The position numbers and the translations under genes were made by a program. DNA of 64,000 nt from Lysinibacillus sp. (GTDB taxonomy: Bacteria > Bacillota > Bacilli > Bacillales_A > Planococcaceae): the NCBI GenBank assembly GCA_032053185.1, contig DAMBVB010000004.1, forward strand, positions 77,900-141,899, read 5' to 3'. Below the pieces are notes generated by a model. The model was not told the origin of the DNA, did not search any database, and saw only the letters and a program-made list of their open reading frames with translations. Shown in pieces: positions 1,285-64,000 of this stretch; position 1 is the stretch's first letter; every line of letters starts with the position of its first letter.

Positions 1285-1389
1285 CAAAAAACATTTAGCC
1301 AATCAATTATGCCTTGGCATAATTGCGTCCAGAGGCTCTACCTTCTTTATAGCAGGTGTTTGGACACCCGCTATAATAAGTTAAAAATC
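1285..1389 (+). repeat. Mosaic repeat, palindrome/long-hairpin type (type B)
   Basis: CAATCAATTATGCCTTGGCATAATTGCGTCC, then TTCTTTATAGCAGGTGT-TTGG-ACACCCGCTATAATAAGTTAAAAA. The same termini occur at 3105-2755 (inverted), 10870-11124, 40121-40160, 56963-57065 and 63891-63980. Confidence 0.85.
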
Positions 1390-2754: not shown

Positions 2755-3105
2755 CAATTTTAACTTCTTTCAACAAATGTTTTATGTAGCGAAAGCACCG
2801 CGTCAGCCTACAAATGTTTTATGTAGCGTAAGTGAAACGGCAGTTATAGAAGTCTCCTACCTCTATAGGTGGTGAGATGAATGCGGTTTTAAGTCCCTCT
2901 TTCCAAACATCCGCTGAAATAGAGGAACTCATTCCAAGAACGCCATATTCTGTGGCAATTTATCTCCAAAAACATCTGTTGCTGTCGCTTCGCTTTCGCA
3001 CAAAAAACATCTGTTGCTGTCGCTTCGCTTTCGCACAAAAAAACATTTGCATGCCCTAGCACAAAGCCGTTCCTGGACGCAATTATGCCGATGCACAATT
3101 GATCA
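2755..3105 (-). repeat. Mosaic repeat type B, long composite copy, inverted relative to 1285-1389
   Basis: Read on the minus strand: CAATTGTGCATCGGCATAATTGCGTCCAGGAACGGCTTTGTGCTAGGGCATGC, then 35-bp units, then a hairpin module, then TGAAAGAAGTTAAAA. Confidence 0.85.
2973..3043. repeat. Tandem 35-bp units (2 copies) centred on GCGAAAGCG
   Basis: CATCTGTTGCTGTCGCTTCGCTTTCGCACAAAAAA starts at 2973 and again at 3008, giving a period of 35. Confidence 0.9.
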
Positions 3106-3281
3106 TTACTACAACGGTCTTCTCACAATACTCTATTAACATTCACAAAAAAATCTGCAATACTTTAAGAACTTGAAACCCAATCACTCTCACAAAGCAG
3201 AGTACTGTAAGGATTGGTGGATCAACCGCATAAAGTAAGCAGATTTTAGATTGCTAGTTTGTTTTAAGAAAATGATTCAAA

Positions 3282-6894: not shown

Positions 6895-7407
6895 AAAAAT
6901 ATTGGTAAATCAAGATTAAAAAGGTTCATCATCAAAAGTTGTGGATGACTTTTGTTAAAACGCCTACTATGCAAATAAGTTGATTGTAGCGGAGACTGGG
7001 CGACTCCTTGGGAATTAGCAATAGAGGAACGAAAGCTAAGAGCATCACATCCTGTGATAACTCCTTCGTGACCAACATCGTGTTGGCCCGAGATCCTGGA
7101 GCGAGCACATAGGGGAACGAAGGCTAAAAGCATCACATCCTGTGATAACTCCTTCGTGACCAACATCGTGTTGGCCCGAGACCCTGGAGCGAGCACATAG
7201 GGGAACGAAGGCTAAAAGCATCACGTCCTGTGATAACGCCTTCGTGACCAACATCCTGTTGCCCCAAGCGGCTCATCGGACGCCCCAGGAAGCTCTGCTC
7301 TGCGCGAAAGCGAAGCGTCTAGCGGCAAATGTTTTATCTGTGCGAAAGCGTCAGCAACAAAGCGCCCAGGCGGAACGGAAATCAACCACACGTTTTGTGA
7401 TGAACCA
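6895..7407 (-). repeat. Mosaic repeat, arm type (type A), full-length copy of about 510 bp
   Basis: Arms are GTTGATTGTAGCGGAGACTGGGCGACTCCTTGGG (left) and GCGCCCAGGCGGAACGGAAATCAAC (right). It contains 88-bp tandem units, CGTCCGATGAGCCGCT (reverse complement) and GCGAAAGCG modules. It is near-colinear with 38318-38745 in the opposite orientation. Confidence 0.9.
7026..7258. repeat. Tandem 88-bp units (2 full + 1 partial)
   Basis: GGAACGAAGGCTAAAAGCATCAC... restarts at 7026, 7114 and 7202. Confidence 0.95.
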
Positions 7408-10869: not shown

Positions 10870-11124
10870 CTGCCGCTTTCGCGCAGATAAACAATGCGTT
10901 CGGAATCTGCTTTGTGCTTAGGCCTGCAGATGTTTTTTGTGCGAAAGCGCAGCGACAGCAACAGATGTTTTTTGTGCGAAAGCGCAGCGACAGCAACAGA
11001 TGTTTTTTGTGCGAAAGCGCAGCGACAGCATGATGAGGCCAATACGATGTCGGTCATTTCTGTTCTTAGTCTGTGTTCCCTATTTCAGCGGGTTTTTCGA
11101 CACTTGCTAAAAGAAGTTAAAAAT
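10870..11124 (+). repeat. Mosaic repeat type B, composite copy with three 35-bp units
   Basis: ACAATGCGTTCGGAATCTGCTTTGTGCTTAGGCCTGC aligns with the 3080-3045 linker. The hairpin TTTCAGCGGGTTTTTCGACACTTGCTAAAAGAAGTTAAAAA at the 3' end overlaps the GNAT stop codon. Confidence 0.85.
10927..11030. repeat. Tandem 35-bp units (3 copies) centred on GTGCGAAAGCGC
   Basis: CAGATGTTTTTTGTGCGAAAGCGCAGCGACAGCAA starts at 10927, 10962 and 10997. Confidence 0.95.
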
Positions 11125-15854: not shown

Positions 15855-15918
15855 TTATATGACACTTTTACATAAATAAAAAGTATTTTTTGTATTTTCT
15901 AAATTTTCTATCTACAAT

Positions 15919-16060
15919 GCCATAAGGTTCATTTCCGTTCTGACTAGGCGCTTTCTTAGGGGGCAACAGGTGTTTATTGCGAGAAAGCTAGGCGGCAGCA
16001 TCCCAAGGAGTCGCCTAGTATCCCGCTCCAATCAACCTATATAGCATACGTTTCCTCAAT
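15919..16060 (+). repeat. Mosaic repeat type A, short copy (arms plus one module)
   Basis: GGTTCATTTCCGTTCTGACTAGGCGCTTTC ... CCCAAGGAGTCGCCTAGTATCCCGCTCCAATCAACC. Confidence 0.85.
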
Positions 16061-16585: not shown

Positions 16586-16983
16586 AAGCCAAGAATCATT
16601 GTCAATTCTCCCCTACAAATATGCAGTTGTCTTTTTGAATAACCATTTATTCGCACTAAAAAAGGAGCTAATTTTACGCTCCTCTTTGTGCTTATTTACT
16701 ATGTATGACGAATCCCGATTGTGCAGTTATGCCAAGAAACATTCGTTTTGAACCCGCAATTCGCAGGGGGGTGCCCGCTTTGCAGCTTTAAACGTCCCGC
16801 TCCGCGTGGGGCTTGTTTGCGACTACAAAATGAAGGCTCCCGATTCTAAAATGTTCGGTCAAAACTGTTAAGTAGAGCTAGCAATTAGACAAACACTTCA
16901 GGATTCGTATTACAGTTATCATAACATTACCCGTCTGATAATTCAAACTATTTTCTTTTTAAAAATTTAAATTCTTGCGAAAA

Positions 16984-17046: not shown

Positions 17047-18816
17047 TTATCTTTTAAATGGTTTAATTGCTAAATTTAGCTCGTTCAATTGTTCTAGAGA
17101 AACTTCACTTGGTGCATTTGTTAATAAGCAGCTTGCACTTGCTGTTTTTGGGAATGCAATTGTGTCACGTAAGTTCGTGCGGCCAGCAAGTAGCATAACG
17201 AAGCGATCAAGACCAAATGCAAGACCCGCATGTGGCGGTACACCATATTCAAATGCTTCTAATAAATAGCCAAATTGAGCTCTTGCTTCTTCTTCTGTGA
17301 AACCAAGTAAATTAAACATTTTTTCTTGTAATTCACGTTCATAAATACGTAATGAACCTCCACCAAGCTCATAACCGTTTAATACAATATCATATGCTTG
17401 TGCGCGGACAGCAGAAGGATCTGTTTCCATTAACGGAATATCTTCGTCAAATGGACGTGTGAATGGATGGTGTGCTGCATAGTAGCGACCGTCTTCTTCC
17501 GAGTACTCTAATAATGGCCACTCTGTGATCCATAGGAATGCAAATTGTGATTCGTCGATTAAGCCTAAATCTTGACCTAATTTCGTACGAAGTGCACCTA
17601 GAGCTGCTGCTACAACAGACGCTTTATCAGCTACAAATACTAAAATATCGCCCACTTCAGCTTTCATACGTTCGATTAATGCAGCTGCTAAAGCATCGTC
17701 AAAGAATTTTGCAATCGGTCCGTTTAAGCCTTCTTCCGTTACTTTTAACCAAGCAAGACCTTTTGCTCCATAAATACCAACGAATTTTGTTAGCTCGTCC
17801 ATGTCTTTACGAGAGTATTTATCTGCCGCACCTTTAATGTTGATACTCTTTACTTGCTTGCCTTGTGCTACTGTATCAGCAAACACTTTGAAATCACAAC
17901 CATCAAAAATATCATTTAAAGCAACTAGCTCTAAGCCGAAACGTACGTCAGGTTTATCTGAACCGTAACGATCCATAGCTTCTTGATATTTCATTCGTTG
18001 GAATGGAGCAGGGATATCAATGCCTTTTACTTCTTTCATAACTGCTTGGATTAAGCGTTCGTTCATTTCAATAACTTCTTCTTGCGTTAAAAAGCTTGTT
18101 TCAATATCTACTTGTGTAAACTCAGGTTGACGGTCAGCACGTAAGTCTTCATCACGGAAACAACGTGCGATTTGGAAGTATTTTTCGAAACCAGACACCA
18201 TTAATAATTGCTTAAATAGCTGCGGTGATTGTGGTAATGCATAAAATTCACCTTCATGAACACGTGATGGTACTAAATAGTCACGAGCACCTTCTGGAGA
18301 TGATTTAGTTAAAATTGGCGTTTCTACTTCTAAGAAGCCTTCGTTTTGTAAGAAGTTACGAATTGTACGAGTAACGTCTGAACGCATTTTAAATGTGTCA
18401 AACATCACAGGGCGACGTAGATCAAGATAACGATATTTTAAACGTAAATCTTCAGATACATCAGTGCGATCTTCGATTTGGAATGGTGGTGTTTTTGCCG
18501 TATTAATAACGACTAATTTTGTTGCTTCTACTTCAATTTTGCCGTTTGGTACATTTGGGTTAATTTGATCTTCTGCACGAAGAATAACTGTCCCTTCTAC
18601 TTCAATTACGTACTCACTGCGCACTTTATCGGCTAGAGCATGTGCTTCTGCAACATCGGGACTAAAGACTACCTGAGTGATTCCAGTACGGTCACGTAAA
18701 TCAATGAAAATTAAACCACCTAAATCGCGGCGACGCTGTACCCAACCTTTTAATACAACTTTTTCGCCTTTTAATGCTTCTGAAAGTTCATTACTTGCAT
18801 GTGTTCTTGTTGCCAT
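17047..18816 (-). CDS. aspS: Aspartate--tRNA ligase
   Basis: 589 aa with class IIb motifs ([37 protein letters not shown]). Confidence 0.95.
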
Positions 18817-18848
18817 TTATTTAATTCCTCCAAAATTTATTTGACTCA

Positions 18849-19035
18849 TCACCATAACTTAGGATTGATTTTTGTTACGACTGGGCGCTTTCCTCGGGAT
18901 GTCCGATGAGCCGCTCTATGGTTTCATCTTTGGCGCTAATCTCGAAGAAGTCGCCCAGTCTCTACTCCAATCAATTATCCACATGACGTCCGTTTTCACA
19001 AAATGTCAGCCCAAACTTTTGGTGAAGAACTTTTT
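18849..19035 (+). repeat. Mosaic repeat type A, short copy inside the hisS-aspS spacer
   Basis: GATTGATTTTTGTTACGACTGGGCGCTTTCC, then TGTCCGATGAGCCGCT, then GAAGTCGCCCAGTCTCTACTCCAATCAATT, plus an extension of about 60 nt homologous to 6895-6975 (reverse complement) and 38680-38745. Confidence 0.85.
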
Positions 19036-19203: not shown

Positions 19204-20469
19204 TTATTGTTTTAATAAGTAGTTCACTAATTCAGAGAACGCTACTTTTTGTTGTTCACCTGATTCCATATGTTTAACAGTCGCTACTTGCTCTTCAAGC
19301 TCTGTTTCGCCTAAAACAATCGTATATTTTGCACCTAAACGGTCTGCCGATTTCATTTGAGCTTTCATTTTGCGATCTAAATAATCCATCTCCGTAGAAA
19401 TGCCCTTAGCACGGAAGGTACTTGTCAATTCTACAGTTTTTAGCTTCGCCTCTTCGCCCATAGCAATCATATAGACATCGAGTCCTGATGCTGTGTCTAA
19501 TTCAACACCCTCAGCTTCAAGTGCAAGCAACAAACGCTCAATACTTAAGGCAAAACCGATACCTGGTACTTCCGGTCCACCAATTTCTTGCACAAGGCCA
19601 TTATAGCGACCCCCACCACAAAGTGTAGTAATGGCTCCAAAGCCAGAAGCTGTTGACATAATTTCAAAAGTCGTATGATTGTAATAATCAAGACCTCTTA
19701 CAAGATTTGGATCGACCTCATACGAAATTCCCAATGTATCTAAATACGTTTTAACTTGAGCGAAATATGCTGCTGACTCCTCTGTTAGGAAATCAGGTAA
19801 GGCAGGTGCAGATTTCATTAATGGGTGCTCGCGGTCTACCTTACAGTCTAAAATGCGCAGTGGATTTTTTTGCAAACGATTTTGGCAATCCGAACAAAAC
19901 TCATGAATATGTGGTTCGAAGTGTTGTAGCAGTGCTGTACGGTGTGCGTCTCGTGTATCTTTGTCGCCAAGTGAATTAATGACTAATTTTAAATCCTTTA
20001 AACCTGCTGATTCATAGACATCCATTGCTAGTGCTATAACTTCTGCATCAATAGCTGGGTCAGCTGAACCAATTGCCTCTACGCCAAATTGAACAAATTG
20101 ACGGTAGCGCCCTGCTTGTTGACGTTCATAACGGAACATTGGTCCTAAATAGGAAAGCTTTACTGGCTGGTCAGGTGCGCCAAACATTTTATGTTCAACA
20201 TATGCGCGAACTACTCCAGCTGTATTCTCCGGACGTAATGTTAACGAACGGCCACCGCGATCTTCAAATGTATACATTTCCTTTTGAACAACATCTGTTG
20301 TTTCACCGACACCACGAGCAAATAAATCTGTTTGCTCAAAAATTGGTGTTCGAATTTCGTTGTAACGATAGACACGACAGATATCACGGATAACTGCTTC
20401 TATCTTATGCCATTTTTCAGATTGACCTGGCAAAATATCTTGCGTCCCTCTTGGCACTTTAAAACTCAT
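19204..20469 (-). CDS. hisS: Histidine--tRNA ligase
   Basis: 421 aa with [39 protein letters not shown] and GGGRYNGL motifs. Confidence 0.95.
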
Positions 20470-20536: not shown

Positions 20537-20795
20537 ATAAAAAAGCTCTCGCCTCCTTGCGTAATGCAAGGGACGAGAGCTGTACAAGCTTCCGCGGTTC
20601 CACCCTAGTTGACGCATCAAATACATGCGTCCTTCTCCTAATCGGATAACGGCCGATTCCGTTTTTTCCTACTAAGCATTACTTTTCAGAAAAAAACCTC
20701 TCAAGTGTTGTTCACAATATACATTTTTGTAGGAAAGATTTCAGCCTAGGTCTTTCCCTCTCTTCTCCAATAGAGGTATATGCTACTTGCTTGGT
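20537..20795 (-). promoter_or_regulatory. T-box leader (tRNA-sensing riboswitch) upstream of hisS
   Basis: The minus strand carries AGAGAGGGAAAG (stem I AG bay) and the T-box core CTAGGGTGGAACCGCGG (plus 20591-20604). A terminator follows: AGCTCTCGTCCCTTGC...GCAAGGAGGCGAGAGCT plus a U-run (plus 20537-20580). Specifier not resolved. Confidence 0.8.
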
Positions 20796-20969
20796 CATAA
20801 GCGGTTAATCATTTTTTGATTACCCTTTATGTTAGTCATAACAAAAGGCAATGTCAACTATTTTTATTTTTTTTACGATACATTCGGTAAAATAATAAAT
20901 TCCATACCTTTTTCCCACGAATTCTATTACAAAAGCATGGTAAAATAGCACAAGAATAGGAGGAATCTG

Positions 20970-35834: not shown

Positions 35835-36861
35835 CGCGGACCCCCACTTCGTTAATATGCTCACTATAAGCAACGACTGCCTCTAATTTTCGGAGTGCAC
35901 GCCCGCTAAAAATACTATCCTTCGCCATTTCTACACCTTCTCTAACGGTTTCAGCAATTCCATAGCTGAACAACCCAATACCAGCATTCAATAAAACTGT
36001 GTCAAAATAAGCACTTTGTTCGCCGGCTAATAATTTACGCATAATTGCTGCGTTTTCATCTGCATTACCTCCACGAATAGCCTCAATTGATGCATAGCTG
36101 AGACCCGCTTCCTCCGCAGTTAATGAAAATGGAATCAAGTCTCCCTTATCTACTAAAACAAAAGTATTTTGACCAGCTAATGACGCCTCATCTAATCCTA
36201 GTGGCCCAGAAACGACCATCGCACGTTCCCGCCCAAGCATTTGTAATACGGATGCGTATTCCATGACAAAATTAGGACGGTTAATGCCTGTAAATTGCGT
36301 CGATAAAGGCACTGGATTCGTAAGAGGACCGACAAGATTAAAAATAGTTGGCGTGCCAAGTGCCCGACGAACCTCACCAATTCGCTTTAATTTCGGATGG
36401 ACATTTGGAGCATACAAAAAGGCGATTCCTTCTTTCGCTAACAGATCCATAGTTTGTTCAATGGAAATATTCGTATGAATACCGAGTGCTTCCAAAACAT
36501 CAGAACTTCCTGATGCCGAAGAAATTTTGCGATTACCGTGCTTCGCCATTTTGACACCAGCCCCCGCTAATACAAAGGCACAAGCTGTACTGATATTAAA
36601 TGTATTAAGACCATCGCCACCAGTACCGCAGTTATCCATATAGATCCCTTCGTTTGCTGGTACATCTAATGCAAACGAACGCATAGTTGTGGCTAATGCC
36701 GCTACTTCATGAGCAGTTTCACCTTTGACAGATAATGCCGTTAAAAAGCTTGCGATTTGTTCTTTTGGTGTGTCATCTTGGAACATCCATGTTGCTGCCT
36801 GTAGCATTTCCTCATACATCAAATGCCCTCGTTGTTGTACTTTTTGACGAATACCTTCCAT
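35818..36861 (-). CDS. trpD: Anthranilate phosphoribosyltransferase
   Basis: 347 aa with CGTGGDG and KHGNRKISSASGSSD motifs. Confidence 0.9.
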   Translation of the reverse strand: MEGIRQKVQQRGHLMYEEMLQAATWMFQDDTPKEQIASFLTALSVKGETAHEVAALATTMRSFALDVPANEGIYMDNCGTGGDGLNTFNISTACAFVLAGAGVKMAKHGNRKISSASGSSDVLEALGIHTNISIEQTMDLLAKEGIAFLYAPNVHPKLKRIGEVRRALGTPTIFNLVGPLTNPVPLSTQFTGINRPNFVMEYASVLQMLGRERAMVVSGPLGLDEASLAGQNTFVLVDKGDLIPFSLTAEEAGLSYASIEAIRGGNADENAAIMRKLLAGEQSAYFDTVLLNAGIGLFSYGIAETVREGVEMAKDSIFSGRALRKLEAVVAYSEHINEVGVRDEYLK

Positions 36862-38231
36862 TAAAGTTGGCCTCCTTCTTTTTCAAGTAGCTGCAAAAAT
36901 TCCTGTTCGTCCTTTTCTACTTGTTTTAAAACTTCCTTAACATTGGTGTATTTGGTCATCGTTACAGTTGATCGCATATGCATCGTTGCATTTTCTATGA
37001 CAATGGCTTTCCCTGTTAATGCAAAATCAAGATGACCGTTAAAGCCAATAAATCCAAGACCTCCTCCAAATATCCCAGCAGTTCGACTAGATTTTTCTAA
37101 ATAGTCCTTTGCCTTATCCTTTGGGATACCTGTTGATGCAAAAGTTGGTAACGTCGCAGCTAATACATCCAGTGCATGAAGCATCGGTAATATTTGACCC
37201 TCGACTCTCGAGGTCATATATAATGCATGCTTTGAACGCTCAATTCTCACTGCCTCAATGACTTGAATGGAATCTCGGAAACATACAGACTGTAGCTCTT
37301 GTTGCACGGCAGAAACAAGTACAGCATGTGACTTCCTAATATTTGTGTTTTCATATAGCTTTCGTTCTTGTTCTAAATCTTCACCTTTTGTGGAACCTCT
37401 AGGCAATGTCCCCTCTGTTGGTGTCGCAATCACACGTTTACCTGTTACTCGAATTAGGCTTTCAGGAGATGTTCCTAAGACAACATGATCCTCAAACTCT
37501 ACATAATACATATAAGGAGCAGGATGTTTTTTACGCAATTGACGATATAAAGCGAAAGCATCACCTTGTAAAGTTGTTAAAAAACGCTTTGATAGAACGA
37601 CTCTTGTCATATCATCTAATGAAGCTTTGATAGCTGTAAGAGAATCTGCAAATTGTTCATTCGTAATCGACTCATATGGTTCATAACTACAAGTTGTATC
37701 CTCATTCTCTCTACCTTTTAAAAGCTGCTCCGCCAACTCTTCTAAATTTGGTTCTTTTTTTTCTGCATCAATATTTGTATGAATCAAAGTAACTTCATCT
37801 GTTACATGATCAAACACAATGACCGTCTCATACACATGAAAATGCACATCTGGTAGCTGTACTTTCGTCTGCTCAGTCGATAATACCGTTGTTGTACCAT
37901 GACCAACATAGCCAACAGCTCCGCCTGAGAATGGGAATCGAGTCGTATTGGATATACGTGGCATTAATCTTTTTAATAAAACAAACATGTCGCCTTTATG
38001 TGTATATGTGTTTCCAGTCTTAGACGAATATTCCTGAATCTCATCTCCAAAGCCTTTATACGTTTTTCTTGGATTAGCGCCGATAAAAGAAAAACGTCCT
38101 GCTCCCTCATGCTGGGCTGAACTCTCCAGTAAAAATTTAAGATTTCCTTGTAGGCGTCTAAAAATTAAAATCGGTGTTAAAGAATCAGCATTAACGGTTT
38201 TCATTTTCGTTCTTGAACTCATCGTTAACAT
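36861..38231 (-). CDS. trpE: Anthranilate synthase component I
   Basis: 456 aa with a chorismate-binding domain. First gene of the operon. No trpG is in the window. Confidence 0.9.
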   Translation of the reverse strand: MLTMSSRTKMKTVNADSLTPILIFRRLQGNLKFLLESSAQHEGAGRFSFIGANPRKTYKGFGDEIQEYSSKTGNTYTHKGDMFVLLKRLMPRISNTTRFPFSGGAVGYVGHGTTTVLSTEQTKVQLPDVHFHVYETVIVFDHVTDEVTLIHTNIDAEKKEPNLEELAEQLLKGRENEDTTCSYEPYESITNEQFADSLTAIKASLDDMTRVVLSKRFLTTLQGDAFALYRQLRKKHPAPYMYYVEFEDHVVLGTSPESLIRVTGKRVIATPTEGTLPRGSTKGEDLEQERKLYENTNIRKSHAVLVSAVQQELQSVCFRDSIQVIEAVRIERSKHALYMTSRVEGQILPMLHALDVLAATLPTFASTGIPKDKAKDYLEKSSRTAGIFGGGLGFIGFNGHLDFALTGKAIVIENATMHMRSTVTMTKYTNVKEVLKQVEKDEQEFLQLLEKEGGQL

Positions 38232-38317
38232 AATACCAAGCTCCTTTTCTTAAAAATCCACTACTGCTTGCCTTACAAATGTTTAGCTGCTAAATCGGTT
38301 CTTGTTGAAAAAAGGAT

Positions 38318-38745
38318 CATTATAGCGTAGGGTTGATTTCCATTCCGGCTGGGCGCTTTGTTGCTGACGCTTCGCTTTCGCACAGATAAAACATTTGCCG
38401 CCGACGCTTCGCTTTCGCGCAGAGCAGAGCTTCCTGGGGGCGTCCGATGAGCCGCTTCACTCGCGTTGCTCGCTCCAGGGTCTCGGGCCAACACGATGTT
38501 GGTCACGAAGGCGTTATCACAGGACGTGATGGTTTTAGCCTTCGTTCCCCTATGTGCTCGCTCCAGGGTCTCGGGCCATTACGAGGTTGGTCACGAAGGC
38601 GTTATCACAGGACGTGATGCTTTTAGCCTCCGTTCCTCTATTGCTAATCCCCAAGGAGTCGCCCAGCCTCCACTCCAATCAACTTATATGCATGGCGTAG
38701 GTTTTAACAAAATGTTACCCCTAATTCCCGATGATGGACAAAAGT
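38318..38745 (+). repeat. Mosaic repeat type A, full-length copy between the trp T-box terminator and trpE
   Basis: GGGTTGATTTCCATTCCGGCTGGGCGCTTTG, then two GCGAAAGCG modules (reverse complement), then GGCGTCCGATGAGCCGCT, then 2 x 88 bp, then CCCCAAGGAGTCGCCCAGCCTCCACTCCAATCAAC plus an extension. Confidence 0.9.
38468..38643. repeat. Tandem 88-bp units (2 copies), reverse complement of the 7026-7258 units
   Basis: GCTCGCTCCAGGGTCTCGGGCCA... restarts at 38468 and 38556. Confidence 0.95.
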
Positions 38746-38786
38746 TTATTAGAAATCATTTGTATGGCATTTTACCAAAGCATGGT

Positions 38787-38897
38787 GTTGTTGATATCTG
38801 TTCCGACTGGGTACTTTCCTGGGGACGTCAGGGAAACAAAATGTTTTCTGTGCATATCGCAGTAACATAGCGGATGTTTATTGTGCGAAAGCGCAGC
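38787..38897 (+). repeat. Second, partial type A element abutting the first
   Basis: GTTGTTGATATCTGTTCCGACTGGGTACTTTCC (arm) ... GGATGTTTATTGTGCGAAAGCGCAGC. Confidence 0.7.
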
Positions 38898-38917
38898 ATT
38901 CATCCCCCTGCAAATAA

Positions 38918-39350
38918 AAACAACAAAAAAAGCCCCCTACAAAAAGGATTTTTCCTAATTGCAGAGGACGATCATGACCGCGTTGCCACCTCATATTAGA
39001 GCATATTTGCTCTCCCTTAAGTGCTCAGCCTTAGTTCGCCAGTTAAATTGACGTATCTTTTGAGTTAATGACAAAAAGATTTATCTAAGTCGTAACACCC
39101 CCTTTAACGTGGGGAATCCGTTCGCTATTATCCATTTCGCCTTGGCGTAACATTCGCCAGAGGCATTGGACCCATAGATGTTTTTTTGTGCGAAAGCGCA
39201 ATGATAACGTACGTCAGCATGCATTTTCGTGACAAAAAACATCTGCTGGATGAAAATAATTAGCGACTCTCATAAGTCCATTCACATAAGCTACAAATCA
39301 GTTTACACCAACCACTGACTCTCTAAATTGCATACTGATGCTACTACTCT
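38918..39350 (-). promoter_or_regulatory. T-box leader with probable Trp (UGG) specifier for the trp operon; unusually long and carrying a repeat insertion
   Basis: The minus strand carries AGUAGUAGC, then AGAGAGUCAGUGGUUGGUGUAAA (stem I), then GAA-UGG-A (plus 39267-39273). The T-box core is AUGAGGUGGCAACGCGG (plus 38977-38990). The terminator is CCUCUGCAA...UUGUAGGGG plus a U-run (plus about 38918-38968). Confidence 0.75.
39174..39246. repeat. Inverted pair of GATGTTTTTTGTGCGAAAGCGC-type modules inside the trp T-box leader
   Basis: ATAGATGTTTTTTTGTGCGAAAGCGC (39174-39199) faces GCATTTTCGTGACAAAAAACATCTGC (39221-39246), giving a stem of about 25 nt. Confidence 0.8.
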
Positions 39351-39566
39351 TATTCAACAATTTCTCAGCTATTCTCATCTAAACTCAGCTCATCTGTTCT
39401 AAGGCTGACCTCGCTCCCGAGACCAACTACCTTGTATCGAACAAAAAAGTTAGTCTTATTCTATGCCAAACAACGATTATTGTCAATCAATTCAGAGAAA
39501 AAGAACAGGCGTTTTGAAATTATATAAAAAGGATAATTCCTCTTTATATATCCCACAAAAAGGAAG

Positions 39567-39935
39567 CTGAACGACGAAACAGCACGAGCTGGCGAGCATG
39601 GCAAAGACTTCGTAGTTGTAGCAGATGAAGTACGAAAGCTTGCTGAAGAAATCAATCTGCTGGCAAAATTGTCCCGCTGACAAATAAAATTCAAACGGAT
39701 ACAAAAAATGTAGCAGCTGCTGGGCATGAAAGATTAACATCTGTCCAGGATGATGTAGGGAAAAATTCACGTAGCCGGTAATGTATTTGATTCCATTACA
39801 CAAGTGGTGCACAATGCCACTTCAGAACAAATTTCAGAAAAGTGTCAAAGAAGTCGCTGGCTTTGTAACAGAAATTGCAGATGGTGTGAGTATTTCTGCT
39901 AGCAAATCATTGGCGAAGCGGTACTAGAGCAAGCT
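39567..39935 (+). pseudogene. Methyl-accepting chemotaxis protein remnant (signalling-domain fragment, 5'-truncated and frameshifted)
   Basis: Own translation: [37 protein letters not shown]. This is the invariant MCP hairpin-tip motif; downstream frames are broken. Confidence 0.7.
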
Positions 39936-39947
39936 GCAATAAGAAAA

Positions 39948-40100: not shown

Positions 40101-40120
40101 CTTCAATAAAGACATATGAA

Positions 40121-40160
40121 CAATTATACCTTGGCATCATTGCTTCTGAAAGAAGTTAAA
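40121..40160 (+). repeat. Minimal 40-bp type B element (two termini only) overlapping the secDF stop codon
   Basis: CAATTATACCTTGGCATCATTGC followed directly by TTCTGAAAGAAGTTAAA. Confidence 0.75.
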
Positions 40161-50932: not shown

Positions 50933-51961
50933 TCACCATCGATAAGGCGTCATCCCGCCTGGGAAATAGTGCGGTGACATCCATGGTCCTACTGACGAAT
51001 ACGGCATATGGCAATGTGATGGACACGGTGGTGGGCATGGCGGCGGACATGGTGGCGGACTGCAACATGTATCCATTTGCCAATTTGGCATCATGACTGG
51101 TTGTGCATGACAACCACAGAGCTGTTCCATTTCTGGCATAGGCTGAAATTCTGGTTTCATAGGGAAGAATGGAGATGTACTAGATTCTAAGAAATCCTCC
51201 ACCCCAGCAACTTTTTCGCATTCCATTTCACATGACGGTTGCTCTGGCATTGTATACGCCTCAACTTGCGGTTCCATTGGCATTGGCATCGGCCAATACA
51301 TATGATGATGCACTGGCTGATGGCAGCTTGCACAATGTGGTACTGCTGGCATTTGTGGCATGATAAAAATCGGTTGCGGCATTGGTGCTGGCGGTGGTGC
51401 CTCCGGTTGGGCTACATGCTGTGGCGGTGGTTGAATTTGAATTGGAGATACAGTTTGCTCTACATTTGGCATGACAACTTGTTGATTCCAGCTAAGCTCA
51501 ACAGGAACTTGGGGCATCGGCATTGGCATTGGATAAGGGATTGGAATCATATGTGGTTCTGGCATTGGTGGTGGTGGTACAATAATTGGTGGTGGCATAG
51601 GTCTTTGAACCTCTTTTTCTTTAACGTGCTTGGTAGGTGACTCCTTGTGCATATGTTCTTTATGCATGTGTTCTTTATGCATATGTTCTTTATGCATATG
51701 TTCTTTGTGCATGTGTTCCTTATGTCCCTCTTTATGTGATTCCCTATGTCCTTCTCTATGCATTCCCCAATCTGTTTCTCGATGATGTTCCCTATGTGGG
51801 TCTTTGTGTATTTTTTCAGGTAGGATAATTTCCATGCCCGGTACAATATAATCTGGGTTAGCGAGATGGGCATTAAGCCGCTTTAAATCTTCAAACGAAA
51901 CTCCATACTCTTTCGCAATCTTCCACAATGTGTCTCCCTTTTGGACAATATGAATACGCAA
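50933..51961 (-). CDS. safA: SafA-like spore coat morphogenetic protein: LysM domain plus His-rich, Pro/Met-rich and Cys-Pro-repeat regions
   Basis: LRIHIVQKGDTLWKIAKEYGVSFEDLKRLNAHLANPDYIVPGMEIILP is a LysM domain like the B. subtilis SafA N-terminus. The probable start is TTG 51961, 6 nt after GAAGGGAGG; the ORF-track ATG 51991 lacks an RBS. Confidence 0.8.
   Translation of the reverse strand: MRIHIVQKGDTLWKIAKEYGVSFEDLKRLNAHLANPDYIVPGMEIILPEKIHKDPHREHHRETDWGMHREGHRESHKEGHKEHMHKEHMHKEHMHKEHMHKEHMHKESPTKHVKEKEVQRPMPPPIIVPPPPMPEPHMIPIPYPMPMPMPQVPVELSWNQQVVMPNVEQTVSPIQIQPPPQHVAQPEAPPPAPMPQPIFIMPQMPAVPHCASCHQPVHHHMYWPMPMPMEPQVEAYTMPEQPSCEMECEKVAGVEDFLESSTSPFFPMKPEFQPMPEMEQLCGCHAQPVMMPNWQMDTCCSPPPCPPPCPPPCPSHCHMPYSSVGPWMSPHYFPGGMTPYRW
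51647..51721. repeat. In-frame 15-bp tandem repeat (5 units) inside safA encoding (HKEHM)n
   Basis: GTGCATATGTTCTTT / ATGCATGTGTTCTTT / ATGCATATGTTCTTT x2 / GTGCATGTGTTCCTT. Confidence 0.95.
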
Positions 51962-52103
51962 TTTTTTCCTCCCTTCCTCTCTTCGTATCATATGTTCAAT
52001 GTTTCATTTGGATACAAAAATTTCACGCATGTTGGAAATGCTTCATGGTACACTAGTTTTTAAGGAAAACTGCTTCCTTTATTACAGGCAGAGGTGATCT
52101 CTT

Positions 52104-54265: not shown

Positions 54266-54339
54266 TAAGGTTTGATTTTATTGGTGGGGTTGATTTCTGT
54301 TCCGAGCGGGCGCTTTCCTAGGGCGTCCGATGAGCCATT
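54266..54339 (+). repeat. Half type A element (one arm plus the CGTCCGATGAGCC module) in the pheB-pheA spacer
   Basis: GGGGTTGATTTCTGTTCCGAGCGGGCGCTTTCCTAGGGCGTCCGATGAGCCATTC. No second arm follows. Confidence 0.8.
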
Positions 54340-56962: not shown

Positions 56963-57065
56963 AATCAATTATGCCTCGGCATGATTGTAGCTGACGCTAC
57001 AGAAAATAATTGTAGCTGACGCTTCGCTTTCGCTACAGAAAATAATTGCTGAAAGAAGTTATAAT
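56963..57065 (+). repeat. Mosaic repeat type B copy between the rpmA terminator and spo0B
   Basis: CAATCAATTATGCCTCGGCATGATTG, then 2 x TAGCTGACGC(TTCGCTTTCGC)TACAGAAAATAATTG, then CTGAAAGAAGTTATAAT. Confidence 0.85.
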
Positions 57066-57071
57066 TTAGCC

Positions 57072-58106: not shown

Positions 58107-58240
58107 TTTACTGCACCTCCTCTTAGACTCAGACTCGCCTGTTTATAAAGGTGATCCTACGATACTTAAACCTTTCCAGTGCGGTTGTAGTAGCACAGGT
58201 GCTACAAACAATAACATTAAAATATTACCACACGATTTTT
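58107..58240 (-). promoter_or_regulatory. Probable L21 ribosomal-protein leader upstream of rplU
   Basis: This 134-nt structured untranslated region lies between the spoIVFB stop and rplU, where Bacilli carry the L21 leader. I have not verified the motif base by base. Confidence 0.35.
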
Positions 58241-63454: not shown

Positions 63455-63890
63455 ATTGTGTACTCCCTTTCTATTTAAGCCATACTTTCATTGACATCAA
63501 CTTACACCCCGGCGCACTATATCCCGAGGCTTTATCTTCATTCACTCGATGTTGGACACCTTCTGAAAAAAACTACATACTCATTTATCTCACACCTGAT
63601 GGAGTGAGAGTCTTTTTCTGAACGAAAATAAAATCATACCGTTCATTATAACGGAAAAACGCAAGAATTAGTAGTGTCACATACCTCTTCTTGCGGAAAA
63701 GATACTATTTTAATTCCCTCCTAAACAAAAATAGTACGTATAGATTAGCATATAATTTTTATTCTTGTAAGACAACGTGTAGCAGGCCACCAATTTTTGT
63801 AAATATAATAGATATTTCTACGAATACAATAACGTTTTCTATAAAAAAAGGTTCGCTTTTTTTTAGCTGCTCGCAAAACATATTTATTTA

Positions 63891-63980
63891 TCAATGATAC
63901 CTTGGCATAATTGCGTACGGAATCGGCTGGAGGCTTTAACTTCTTTCAGCAGGTGTTTGGATACCCGCTGAAAAAGCAAC
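63891..63980 (+). repeat. Mosaic repeat type B copy upstream of the mreB region
   Basis: TCAATGATACCTTGGCATAATTGCGTACGGAATCGG, then CTTTAACTTCTTTCAGCAGGTGT-TTGG-ATACCCGCTGAAAAAGC. Confidence 0.85.
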
Positions 63981-64000
63981 GTAAATTCGCATTCATCTCA

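What the first reader, a model, noticed from the sequence alone, without database searches (positions are those of the whole stretch)
38232..39350. The trp T-box leader is invaded twice by repeat elements
The Trp-type T-box has the specifier context GAA-UGG-A at plus 39267-39273, the T-box core at 38977-38990 and a terminator at about 38918-38968. It contains an inverted pair of GATGTTTTTTGTGCGAAAGCGC modules (39174-39246) between stem I and the antiterminator. This puts the specifier about 280 nt from the T-box core, which by my recollection is longer than in typical T-box leaders. Downstream of the terminator, about 686 nt separate it from the trpE start. That spacer is filled by a full arm-type element (38318-38745) plus a partial one (38787-38897). 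Any read-through trp transcript must therefore carry roughly 0.5 kb of stacked hairpins in its 5' UTR. Those hairpins could affect stability, processing or translation of trpE, or the elements may carry their own promoter.
Basis: partly seen in the sequence, partly recalled or inferred. Interest (0 to 1): 0.65.

Follow-up and report, generated by a model that had tools for sequence, protein, structure and literature searches.

The report
Repeat elements inside a trp T-box leader
The tryptophan-operon leader of this Lysinibacillus genome is an intact T-box riboswitch that carries three copies of a genome-wide family of small structured repeats, which triples its length. The same leader also has an unreported TRAP-type protein-binding site.

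Summary
Rfam finds a complete Trp T-box at 38961-39366 (-), specifier UGG at 39278-39280.

A 124-nt insert (39131-39254) sits in the apical loop of stem II. The 693-nt gap between the terminator and trpE holds a partial repeat element (38787-38905) and a full one (38316-38740) with two Bacillaceae-1 (RF01690) units.

In 26 other Lysinibacillus species the same sites range from empty to differently filled: stem II loop 11-15 nt, terminator-to-ATG 64-81 nt when empty. Stem I, the T-box core and the terminator stay almost invariant. So these are real, recent insertions at structurally permissive sites of a working riboswitch. The stem II insert folds on itself. No consensus promoter lies in the spacer. 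No transcript data exist for this strain, so any effect on expression is inferred.

The repeats form a modular family of about a hundred copies per genome, which I did not find described.

Outside the finding, directly 5' of stem I, lie nine to eleven (G/U)AG-type triplets at 5-nt spacing. The triplets are conserved while the spacers vary. Contigs of this organism hold an mtrB-like gene. A leader that combines TRAP and T-box control is the most novel reading.

The parts
39458..39486 (-). Leader promoter, TTGACA-17-TAGAAT
   Evidence: It matches 11 of 12 consensus positions and is conserved in all aligned relatives.
39407..39424 (-). 5' stem-loop GGUCUCG-GGAG-CGAGGUC, upstream of the triplet run
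   Evidence: It is predicted in most of the 27 leaders. Changes on both strands keep the pairing, for example GACUACG/CGUGGUC and GGUUUCG/CGAAGCC.
39364..39407 (-). TRAP-type site: nine NAG triplets (CAG, UAG, CAG, GAG, GAG, UAG, GAG, UAG, GAG). The last eight are exactly 5 nt apart. Two more GAG lie at 39410-39416 inside the 5' stem-loop.
   Evidence: - The six-triplet pattern is unique in the window, with 0 matches expected by chance.
- Across 24 species the AG positions vary in 1 of 384 cells (1 of 16 columns). The spacers vary in 28 of 336 cells (9 of 14 columns).
- L010 and L011 carry one extra 5-nt unit, which keeps the period.
38961..39366 (-). Trp T-box riboswitch: stem I, specifier UGG at 39280-39278, stem II, stem IIA/B, linker, stem III and the antiterminator/terminator
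   Evidence: Rfam RF00230 scores 102.8 bits and the full model is matched.
39131..39254 (+). Type 2 repeat element in the apical loop of stem II. It consists of a P hairpin (39131-39161), an inverted pair of GCGAAAGCG-type units (39177-39243) and a terminal CTGGATGAAAATAAT.
   Evidence: - It is absent from 14 congeners, where the flanks abut.
- It is homologous to elements at 1296-1392 and 63884-63990 and to the stem II inserts of L001, L008, L015 and L026.
- It folds on itself: -52.2 kcal/mol, z -4.8. Pair-probability mass is 44.0 inside the insert against 1.6 crossing its boundary.
39026..39096 (-). Clade-specific hairpin in the linker between stem IIA/B and stem III. It is not demonstrably repeat-derived.
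   Evidence: It is absent from L018 and L022 (linker 47-48 nt against 112 nt here). No copies were found elsewhere in the window or the loci.
38925..38969 (-). T-box terminator: an 11-bp stem with three G-U pairs, then U7
   Evidence: Read from the sequence. Predicted energy is -21.2 kcal/mol against -24.7 for the genus consensus. The helix is kept in all 27 leaders.
38787..38905 (-). Truncated type 1 element: one GCGAAAGCG unit plus the right inner inverted repeat
   Evidence: See repeat families D1, D4 and D6 and alignment A2. The homologous short element is present in L003, L004 and L021.
38316..38740 (-). Full type 1 element. In order: outer terminal inverted repeat (TIR), 5' region, left inner repeat, two 88-nt units, linker, two GCGAAAGCG units, right inner repeat, outer TIR.
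   Evidence: It is 91% identical over 246 nt to the inverted copy at 6950-7195. See also alignment A2. It is absent from the outgroup species.
38576..38642 (-). Bacillaceae-1 RNA motif, unit 1
   Evidence: Rfam RF01690 scores 60.7 bits against a gathering score of 35.
38488..38554 (-). Bacillaceae-1 RNA motif, unit 2
   Evidence: Rfam RF01690 scores 74.8 bits.
38232..38315 (-). Proximal 5' UTR with the ribosome-binding site AAGGAG (38246-38241)
   Evidence: Read from the sequence. It is conserved in the close clade.
36861..38231 (-). trpE, first gene of trpEDCFBA
   Evidence: The ORF is 456 aa. It is 65-91% identical to Lysinibacillus TrpE.

Best explanation
**What it is.** The trp operon of this Lysinibacillus is transcribed from one promoter (39486-39458). 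It is controlled by an intact tRNA-Trp-sensing T-box terminator/antiterminator.

**What has been added.** Three copies of a non-coding, modular, multi-copy repeat family have landed in the leader, at places where extra RNA does little harm.
- One sits in the apical loop of stem II.
- Two sit in the untranslated stretch between the terminator and the trpE ribosome-binding site.

**Why the riboswitch should still work.**
- Each element folds into its own hairpins. The stem II insert therefore only lengthens stem II.
- Stem I, the specifier, the T-box core and the terminator are left free to work.
- Read-through transcripts then carry about 560 nt of repeat RNA, including two Bacillaceae-1 units in sense orientation, ahead of trpE.

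**Most likely role.** The inserts are tolerated passengers with at most a modest effect on timing, RNA processing or stability.

**Shown.** The T-box is intact. The inserts are repeat-derived and lineage-specific. The inserts fold autonomously. The sites gain, lose and change their contents quickly while the riboswitch stays constant.

**Inferred.** The T-box still regulates. trpE has no other promoter. The inserts are nearly neutral.
For: - **Intact T-box.** The Rfam hit covers the full model. The T-box core and terminator are almost identical in 27 leaders, including those with the largest inserts. The terminator keeps 11 pairs through G-U substitutions.
- **Inserts are derived.** All outgroup species have a stem II loop region of 11-15 nt. 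The six measured species with an empty spacer, five of them outgroups, have 64-81 nt between terminator and ATG (L018 and L025 are longer). The window has 139 nt and 694 nt.
- **Inserts are repeat DNA.** Summed contig depth over the element is about 45-480 times the unique depth in DNA runs X1 and X4, so the family has on the order of 100 copies per genome.
- **Fast turnover at the same sites.**
  - Stem II loop: empty in 14 species, P hairpin only in L002, L006 and L014, two hairpins in L001, L008, L015 and L026, and a 328-nt form with two Bacillaceae-1 units in L012.
  - Linker site: type 2 elements in L009, L010 and L001.
- **Autonomous folding.**
- **No coding signal.** ORFs inside the repeats have no Pfam match.
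- **One promoter.** The only good promoter match on the trpE strand is upstream of the T-box.
- **Co-transcription in a relative.** One contig from an RNA library (X30) joins the T-box leader to trpE.
- **Tolerated inside an operon.** A type 1 element also lies between hisS and aspS (18848-19035), inside another T-box-controlled operon.
Against: - No transcript data exist for this strain. Read-through, processing and the absence of an internal start site are therefore unproven.
- All 13 Bacillaceae-1 units found in nine trp leaders lie on the trpE strand. This could hint at selection for orientation, although it may reflect only about three insertion events.
- The window's terminator is 3.5 kcal/mol weaker than the genus consensus.
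- Thermodynamic folding of the whole leader does not recover the canonical stem I. The claim that the insert does not disturb the fold therefore rests on local folding only.
- The spacer as a whole is not more stable than shuffled sequence (z -1.2).
Confidence: 0.68

Rival explanations
1. The elements have been co-opted as cis-regulatory parts of the trp mRNA. One version is that the Bacillaceae-1 hairpins, with RUCCU loops, bind a dimeric protein. Another is that they pair with the AGGAG ribosome-binding site. A third is that the stacked hairpins act as processing or stabilising sites that set trpE output.
For: - All 13 Bacillaceae-1 units in nine trp leaders are in sense orientation.
- Large spacers are retained in a whole subclade.
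- The discoverers of Bacillaceae-1 proposed binding to a homodimeric protein (supplement of PMC2864571).
- The loops carry UCCU, which is complementary to AGGA (read from the sequence).
Against: - The number and presence of units differ between the closest relatives. The spacer holds two units here, one in L021, and none in L003, L004 and L008.
- The copy at 7020-7262 is antisense to its neighbouring genes.
- The orientation bias may come from as few as three insertion events.
Confidence: 0.17
2. The T-box is uncoupled from trpE. Transcripts that pass the terminator do not reach trpE, because of Rho or nucleases acting in the 693-nt spacer. The operon is instead driven by a promoter carried by an element.
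For: - The spacer is far longer than in any of 887 surveyed T-boxes, all of which lie within 480 nt of the start codon (PMC2494555).
- A weak TTGTTA-17-TATAAG motif recurs in the 5' part of type 1 elements.
Against: - The T-box core and terminator are under strong conservation in this lineage.
- No consensus promoter lies on the trpE strand in the spacer.
- The candidate -10 hexamer lacks its last T.
- Type 1 elements also lie inside the hisS-aspS operon.
Confidence: 0.08
3. The arrangement is an assembly artefact caused by collapsed or mis-joined repeats.
For: The short-read contigs of run X1 break inside the large element, between 38373 and 38659.
Against: - X1 contigs match 38660-39500 and 38100-38372 with no differences. 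That stretch includes the stem II insert, the partial element and both junctions of the full element.
- L021, L010, L011 and L015 have the same layout.
Confidence: 0.03

Closest known systems
T-box riboswitch (Rfam RF00230), Trp class, as upstream of trp operons in the Bacillus cereus group and of rtpA and trpS in B. subtilis
   Same: It has stem I with a UGG specifier followed by a purine. It has the T-box core with a UGGC bulge. It has an overlapping terminator and antiterminator. A cognate biosynthetic operon lies downstream.
   Different: - A single T-box, not a tandem pair.
- 124 nt of repeat DNA in the stem II loop.
- The T-box core lies 747 nt from the start codon. In a survey of 887 T-boxes none was further than 480 nt (PMC2494555).
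- A TRAP-type triplet run directly upstream.
Bacillaceae-1 RNA motif (Rfam RF01690; Weinberg et al. 2010, PMC2864571)
   Same: Two units in the spacer score 60.7 and 74.8 bits. Each has two hairpins, with UCCU-type loops.
   Different: The motif was described as a likely trans-acting small RNA found in many gene contexts. Here the units are 88-nt tandem modules inside elements bounded by inverted repeats. In this case they lie in a 5' UTR.
Modular intergenic repeats: pneumococcal BOX elements (boxA-(boxB)n-boxC), Neisseria Correia elements, enterobacterial REP/BIME and ERIC, and bcr1 of the B. cereus group (from my own knowledge)
   Same: They are short, non-coding, highly structured and multi-copy. 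They sit in intergenic and untranslated regions. They have end modules with inverted complementarity and a variable number of internal tandem modules. They are often co-transcribed with neighbouring genes.
   Different: No sequence relationship was tested or seen. The mobilising enzyme is unknown. Target duplications are not clear. The internal modules here include an Rfam-listed RNA motif.
B. subtilis trp leader bound by TRAP (11 (G/U)AG repeats; PMC3064811)
   Same: It has a run of NAG triplets with 2-nt spacers preceded by a 5' stem-loop. The triplets are conserved while the spacers vary. A TRAP (mtrB) homologue is present in the organism's DNA contigs.
   Different: - The site does not overlap an antiterminator.
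- It lies immediately 5' of a T-box stem I.
- Two of the nine periodic triplets are CAG.

Membership tests
T-box riboswitch | Covariance-model match above the curated threshold over the full model | tested here: met
   102.8 bits against a gathering score of 93, model positions 1-219.
T-box riboswitch | Specifier loop with a codon matching the downstream pathway, followed by a purine | tested here: met
   GAA UGG A at 39283-39277, upstream of trpE.
T-box riboswitch | Conserved T-box sequence with a UGGN bulge, overlapping an intrinsic terminator | tested here: met
   AUGAGGUGGCAACGCGG at 38994-38978. An 11-bp terminator with U7 lies at 38969-38925.
T-box riboswitch | tRNA-dependent antitermination | not testable with these tools
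   This needs in vitro transcription or reporter assays.
Bacillaceae-1 RNA (RF01690) | Covariance-model match above the gathering score | tested here: met
   74.8 and 60.7 bits against 35, at 38488-38554 and 38576-38642.
Bacillaceae-1 RNA (RF01690) | Expressed as a free small RNA | tested here: inconclusive
   RNA-library contigs hold the repeat. Their depth relative to the trp leader (about 300-600 times) is no higher than the DNA copy ratio. Contigs carry no strand information.
MITE-like or REP-like non-autonomous repeat | Multi-copy, short and non-coding | tested here: met
   At least 13 repeat clusters lie in 64 kb. Copy number is about 100 per genome by contig depth. No Pfam hits.
MITE-like or REP-like non-autonomous repeat | Terminal inverted repeats | tested here: met
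   Type 1 elements have outer repeats GGTTCATCATC...GATGATGAACC and inner repeats GTTGATTGGAGTGGAGRCTGGGCG...GCGCCCAGYCGGAAYGGAAATCAAC. Type 2 elements have a palindromic P hairpin but no clear terminal inverted repeats.
MITE-like or REP-like non-autonomous repeat | Target-site duplication | tested here: inconclusive
   The flanks are A/T-rich and share short runs, for example AAATAAA around 18848-19035. No unambiguous duplication is seen.
MITE-like or REP-like non-autonomous repeat | A cognate transposase or RAYT-type enzyme in the genome | not tested
   Only 64 kb of this genome is on hand.
TRAP-regulated leader | Nine to eleven (G/U)AG triplets separated by 2-3 nt | tested here: met
   Nine triplets lie at 39407-39364, eight of them at an exact 5-nt period. 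Seven are GAG or UAG and two are CAG. Two further GAG lie in the 5' stem-loop.
TRAP-regulated leader | Selection on triplets but not on spacers | tested here: met
   AG positions are variable in 1 of 16 columns. Spacers are variable in 9 of 14 columns across 24 species. The cells are not phylogenetically independent.
TRAP-regulated leader | TRAP (mtrB) encoded by the organism | tested here: met
   - One unique-depth contig in each of X1, X4, X5 and X7 covers mtrB positions 10046-10168 of L038 at about 82% identity.
- X1 is the run that matches the window exactly.
- In X1 and X5 the same contig also covers folE.
- The flanking letters translate to AQDYIVIQAE and IRGKAQIHTA.
- The evidence is indirect, because the contigs themselves could not be read in full.
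TRAP-regulated leader | The binding site overlaps an antiterminator or ribosome-binding site, so that binding changes expression | tested here: not met
   The site ends 3 nt before stem I of the T-box. It overlaps neither the antiterminator nor the trpE ribosome-binding site. The mode of action would have to differ from that in B. subtilis.

The most novel reading that the evidence does not exclude
The Lysinibacillus trp leader combines two tryptophan sensors in one RNA. A TRAP-binding run of (G/U)AG triplets, which reads free tryptophan, lies directly 5' of a Trp T-box, which reads tRNA-Trp charging. TRAP bound next to the base of stem I, or reaching into it, would hinder tRNA capture. The GAG and UAG triplets at 39349-39341 lie within the stem I base. 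Read-through would then need both low tryptophan and uncharged tRNA. B. subtilis achieves this logic in trans through anti-TRAP. The repeat insertions show which parts of such a leader can be stretched without loss.
Probability: 0.5. Interest if true: 0.72.

Novelty: new member of a known kind. Interest (0 to 1): 0.5.

Why it matters
- **Map of insertion tolerance.** The 27 leaders act as a natural experiment on where a transcriptional T-box tolerates insertions. Inserts range from 0 to about 315 nt in the stem II loop, up to about 380 nt in the linker before stem III, and from about 65 to 694 nt after the terminator. The tRNA-contacting parts stay fixed throughout. This is useful for riboswitch engineering and for annotation, because the two most heavily invaded leaders (L001, L012; L016 also fell below) fall below the Rfam threshold.
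- **Status of Bacillaceae-1.** Rfam lists this motif as a small-RNA gene. In Lysinibacillus it is a tandem module of a mobile-looking repeat family. This changes how its many hits should be read.
- **Possible dual sensor.** If the TRAP-type site is functional, this would be a leader that merges the two known Gram-positive ways of sensing tryptophan. I found no report of such a leader in the searchable literature.

Tried and rejected
- **RNA evidence for this strain.** No RNA run holds the sequence. Soil metatranscriptomes and one RNA library of a relative hold only conserved parts and repeat copies.
- **Promoter in the spacer.** The consensus scan finds none on the trpE strand. The recurrent TTGTTA-17-TATAAG motif in type 1 elements is weak.
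- **Linker hairpin 39026-39096 as a third repeat insert.** No copies exist elsewhere, so I did not count it.
- **Coding potential of ORFs in the repeats.** No Pfam match.
- **Long-range helix between the 5' end of the leader and the base of stem I.** It appears in the minimum-energy fold of the window but is not kept in more distant species. I dropped it.
- **TRAP gene.**
  - It is not in the window or within 4 kb of trpE in relatives.
  - The top 120 of 4559 homologues carry no Lysinibacillus name.
  - Eighty metagenome TRAP loci hold none of the repeats.
  - It was resolved only by laying isolate contigs on a low-GC folE-mtrB locus.
- **Literature.** Searches on Lysinibacillus with T-box, TRAP, mtrB or MITE found nothing relevant. 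Three key reviews are not held.
- **Stability of the whole spacer.** It is not significantly more stable than shuffled sequence (z -1.2).
Full report
**What is at the locus**

Rfam places a complete T-box leader at 38961-39366 on the minus strand. It scores 102.8 bits against a gathering score of 93.
- The T-box core AUGAGGUGGCAACGCGG lies at 38994-38978.
- The terminator is an 11-bp stem (38969-38959 with 38942-38932) followed by seven U.
- trpE starts at 38231 and heads trpEDCFBA.
- A near-consensus promoter, TTGACA-17-TAGAAT, lies at 39486-39458.
- TrpE is 65-91% identical to Lysinibacillus proteins, closest to the L. xylanilyticus group.

The Rfam alignment opens a 126-nt gap in the loop of stem II.
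- The inverted pair of GATGTTTTTT(T)GTGCGAAAGCGC-like arms is at 39177-39199 and 39221-39243.
- The motif recurs five more times in the window, against none expected by chance.
- The spacer between terminator and trpE is 693 nt.
- Two Bacillaceae-1 (RF01690) hits lie in it, at 38488-38554 and 38576-38642.
- The stretch 38467-38712 is 91% identical to an inverted copy at 6950-7195.
- Contigs of an independent DNA run (X1) match 38660-39500 and 38100-38372 without a single difference. Its short-read assembly breaks only inside the large repeat.

**Comparison with relatives**

I fetched the trpE locus of 26 Lysinibacillus species and placed landmarks in each leader.

| Measure | Empty or baseline state | Other states seen | Window |
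|---|---|---|---|
| Region between the two strands of stem II | 11-15 nt in 14 species | 21-22 nt in two, 39-42 nt in three, 79-91 nt in four, 328 nt in L012 | 139 nt |
| Terminator to ATG | 64-81 nt in six species | up to 648 nt in L021 (648 nt) | 694 nt, the longest |
| Specifier to T-box core | 98-156 nt in twelve species | up to 555 nt | 288 nt |
| Transcription start to ATG | 418-477 nt in the shortest leaders | | about 1219 nt |

On a trpE tree every outgroup has the empty stem II state, and most also have the short spacer. The filled states are confined to one clade and are patchy within it. The window's nearest relatives, L001 and L004, differ from it at all three variable sites. The extra sequence is therefore inserted, recent and unstable.

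In contrast, the T-box core, stem III and the terminator are almost identical in all 27 leaders, including those with the largest inserts. The window's terminator differs from the consensus only by changes that turn G-C or A-U pairs into G-U pairs.

**What the inserts are**

The window holds at least 13 repeat clusters. Nearly all sit in the longer intergenic regions. Two architectures share modules.

*Type 1.* The modules run in this order:
1. an outer inverted repeat (GGTTCATCATC...GATGATGAACC);
2. a 5' region of about 55 nt;
3. a left inner repeat (GTTGATTGGAGTGGAGRCTGGGCGAC);
4. a variable number of 88-nt units, each holding one Bacillaceae-1 motif;
5. a linker;
6. a variable number of 35-37-nt GCGAAAGCG units;
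7. the right inner repeat.

Copies lie at 6919-7397 (three units), 38316-38740 (two units), 18848-19035 and 15911-16048 (no units), 54284-54339, and in truncated form at 38787-38905.

*Type 2.* This type starts with a palindromic P hairpin (ATCAATTATGCCTTGGCATAATTG). It then has a variable core, which is a second hairpin, GCGAAAGCG units or Bacillaceae-1-like units. It ends in CTGAAAGAAGTTAAAAAT. Copies lie at 1302-1388, 63890-63985, 56964-57066, 40119-40160, 2756-3108 and 10895-11124.

The stem II insert at 39131-39254 is a complete type 2 element. The same site in L001, L008, L015 and L026 holds the two-hairpin form. In L002, L006 and L014 it holds the P hairpin only. In L012 it holds a long form with two Bacillaceae-1 units. 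A second site in the linker (GTCAATTTAACT|GGCGAAC, empty in the window) holds type 2 elements in L009, L010 and L001.

Further properties of the family:
- Summed contig depth over the elements is about 45-480 times the unique depth in two DNA runs. That puts the family at around 100 copies per genome.
- ORFs across the repeats have no Pfam match.
- I found no description of this family. Bacillaceae-1 was published as a likely trans-acting RNA of unknown function.

**How it most likely works**

The stem II insert folds on its own.
- Its energy is -52.2 kcal/mol with z -4.8, and the stem II base is closed.
- In the ensemble, pair-probability mass is 44.0 inside the insert against 1.6 crossing its boundary.
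- The rest of the predicted structure is unchanged when the insert is removed.

From established knowledge of T-boxes, tRNA is read by the specifier loop and distal platform of stem I and by the antiterminator bulge. Stem II and stem IIA/B are absent from some classes. An apical-loop insertion should therefore be tolerated.

No promoter-like site lies on the trpE strand in the spacer. A contig from an RNA library of a relative joins the T-box to trpE. A type 1 element also sits between hisS and aspS, inside another T-box operon.

The best reading is therefore a working T-box that carries tolerated passengers. I put this at about 0.68. The steps from 'intact' to 'functional', and from 'tolerated' to 'neutral', are inferences.

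**Rival explanations**
- *Co-option of the Bacillaceae-1 units as a cis-acting protein or anti-ribosome-binding-site module (0.17).* All 13 units in nine trp leaders are in sense orientation. Against it, unit number varies between the closest relatives, and another copy is antisense to its neighbours.
- *An uncoupled T-box with an element-borne promoter (0.08).*
- *An assembly artefact (0.03).*

**An unreported feature outside the finding**

Between the promoter and stem I lies a conserved 5' stem-loop (39424-39407). Changes on both strands keep its pairing.

It is followed by nine NAG triplets at 39407-39364, the last eight exactly 5 nt apart.
- A six-triplet pattern of this kind is unique in the window and not expected by chance.
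- Across 24 species the AG positions change in 1 of 16 columns, while the 2-nt spacers change in 9 of 14 columns.
- L010 and L011 carry one extra 5-nt unit, which keeps the period.

This is the signature of a TRAP binding site like that of the B. subtilis trp leader (PMC3064811).

mtrB is not in the window. However, contigs of X1 (the run that matches the window exactly) and of three related DNA runs (X4, X5, X7) cover the core of mtrB on a folE-mtrB locus at about 82% identity. Their flanking letters translate to TRAP-like peptides.

The site does not overlap an antiterminator. If TRAP acts here, it must do so differently, most simply by hindering stem I, whose base starts 3 nt downstream. 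I found no report of a leader that combines TRAP and a T-box.

**Verdict**

The finding is correct and its interpretation is supported. The thing itself is a new member of known kinds: a T-box riboswitch plus MITE-like or BOX-like repeats.

It has two points of wider interest. It gives a natural map of where a T-box tolerates insertions. In a survey of 887 T-boxes none lay more than 480 nt from the start codon (PMC2494555), whereas here the core is 747 nt away. And the same leader may be a dual TRAP/T-box sensor.

Noticed in passing
window 39364-39424 (-): A TRAP-type site lies in the trp leader. A conserved 5' stem-loop is followed by nine NAG triplets at a 5-nt period, directly upstream of T-box stem I. 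The triplets are conserved and the spacers vary across 24 species.
   Followed up: yes
L038:9435-10168 (metagenome folE-mtrB locus), runs X1, X4, X5, X7: Contigs of the window's organism (X1) and of related DNA runs cover the mtrB core and folE at about 80% identity. The genus therefore very probably encodes TRAP even though its trp operon has a T-box.
   Followed up: partly
window 7020-7262 (+), 38488-38642 (-); L001, L002, L005, L007, L010-L012, L015, L021: Bacillaceae-1 (RF01690) hits are 88-nt tandem modules inside repeat elements bounded by inverted repeats. They are not stand-alone genes. Unit number varies from 0 to 3 between copies.
   Followed up: yes
window 18848-19035 (-): A short type 1 element, without Bacillaceae-1 units, lies between hisS (19204-20469) and aspS (17047-18816). 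It is downstream of the hisS T-box at 20566-20807, so it sits inside a likely operon.
   Followed up: partly
window 39575-39942 (+): This is a remnant of a methyl-accepting chemotaxis protein gene. Relatives carry a 562-aa gene between secDF and the trp promoter (L021:1049-2737). The window keeps only about 370 nt of its 3' end and lacks about 1.3 kb.
   Followed up: partly
window 1302-1388, 2756-3108, 10895-11124, 39131-39254, 40119-40160, 56964-57066, 63890-63985: Six of seven type 2 elements, and five of six type 1 elements, have the same orientation on the minus strand. That is the strand of most genes here. The bias could relate to transcription or to replication direction.
   Followed up: no
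window 38241-38316 (-): In the minimum-energy fold of the spacer, CCUUUUUU (38316-38309) pairs with AAGAAAAGG, which overlaps the trpE ribosome-binding site. This segment is present only in the clade with expanded spacers.
   Followed up: no
L001 and L012 (also L016): These leaders have intact stem I, specifier, T-box core and terminator but fall below the Rfam T-box threshold. In L001 and L012 the cause is a roughly 300-nt element inserted inside the riboswitch. Such cases would be missed by routine annotation.
   Followed up: partly
window 51627-51724: A tandem array of a 15-nt unit (TGCATATGTTCTTTA-like, about six copies) lies inside the ORF 50933-51991 (-).
   Followed up: no
window 16708-16907 (-), 58121-58196 (-): Rfam also finds a 6S RNA and an L21 ribosomal-protein leader. 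Repeat elements lie next to both, at 15911-16048 and 56964-57066.
   Followed up: no
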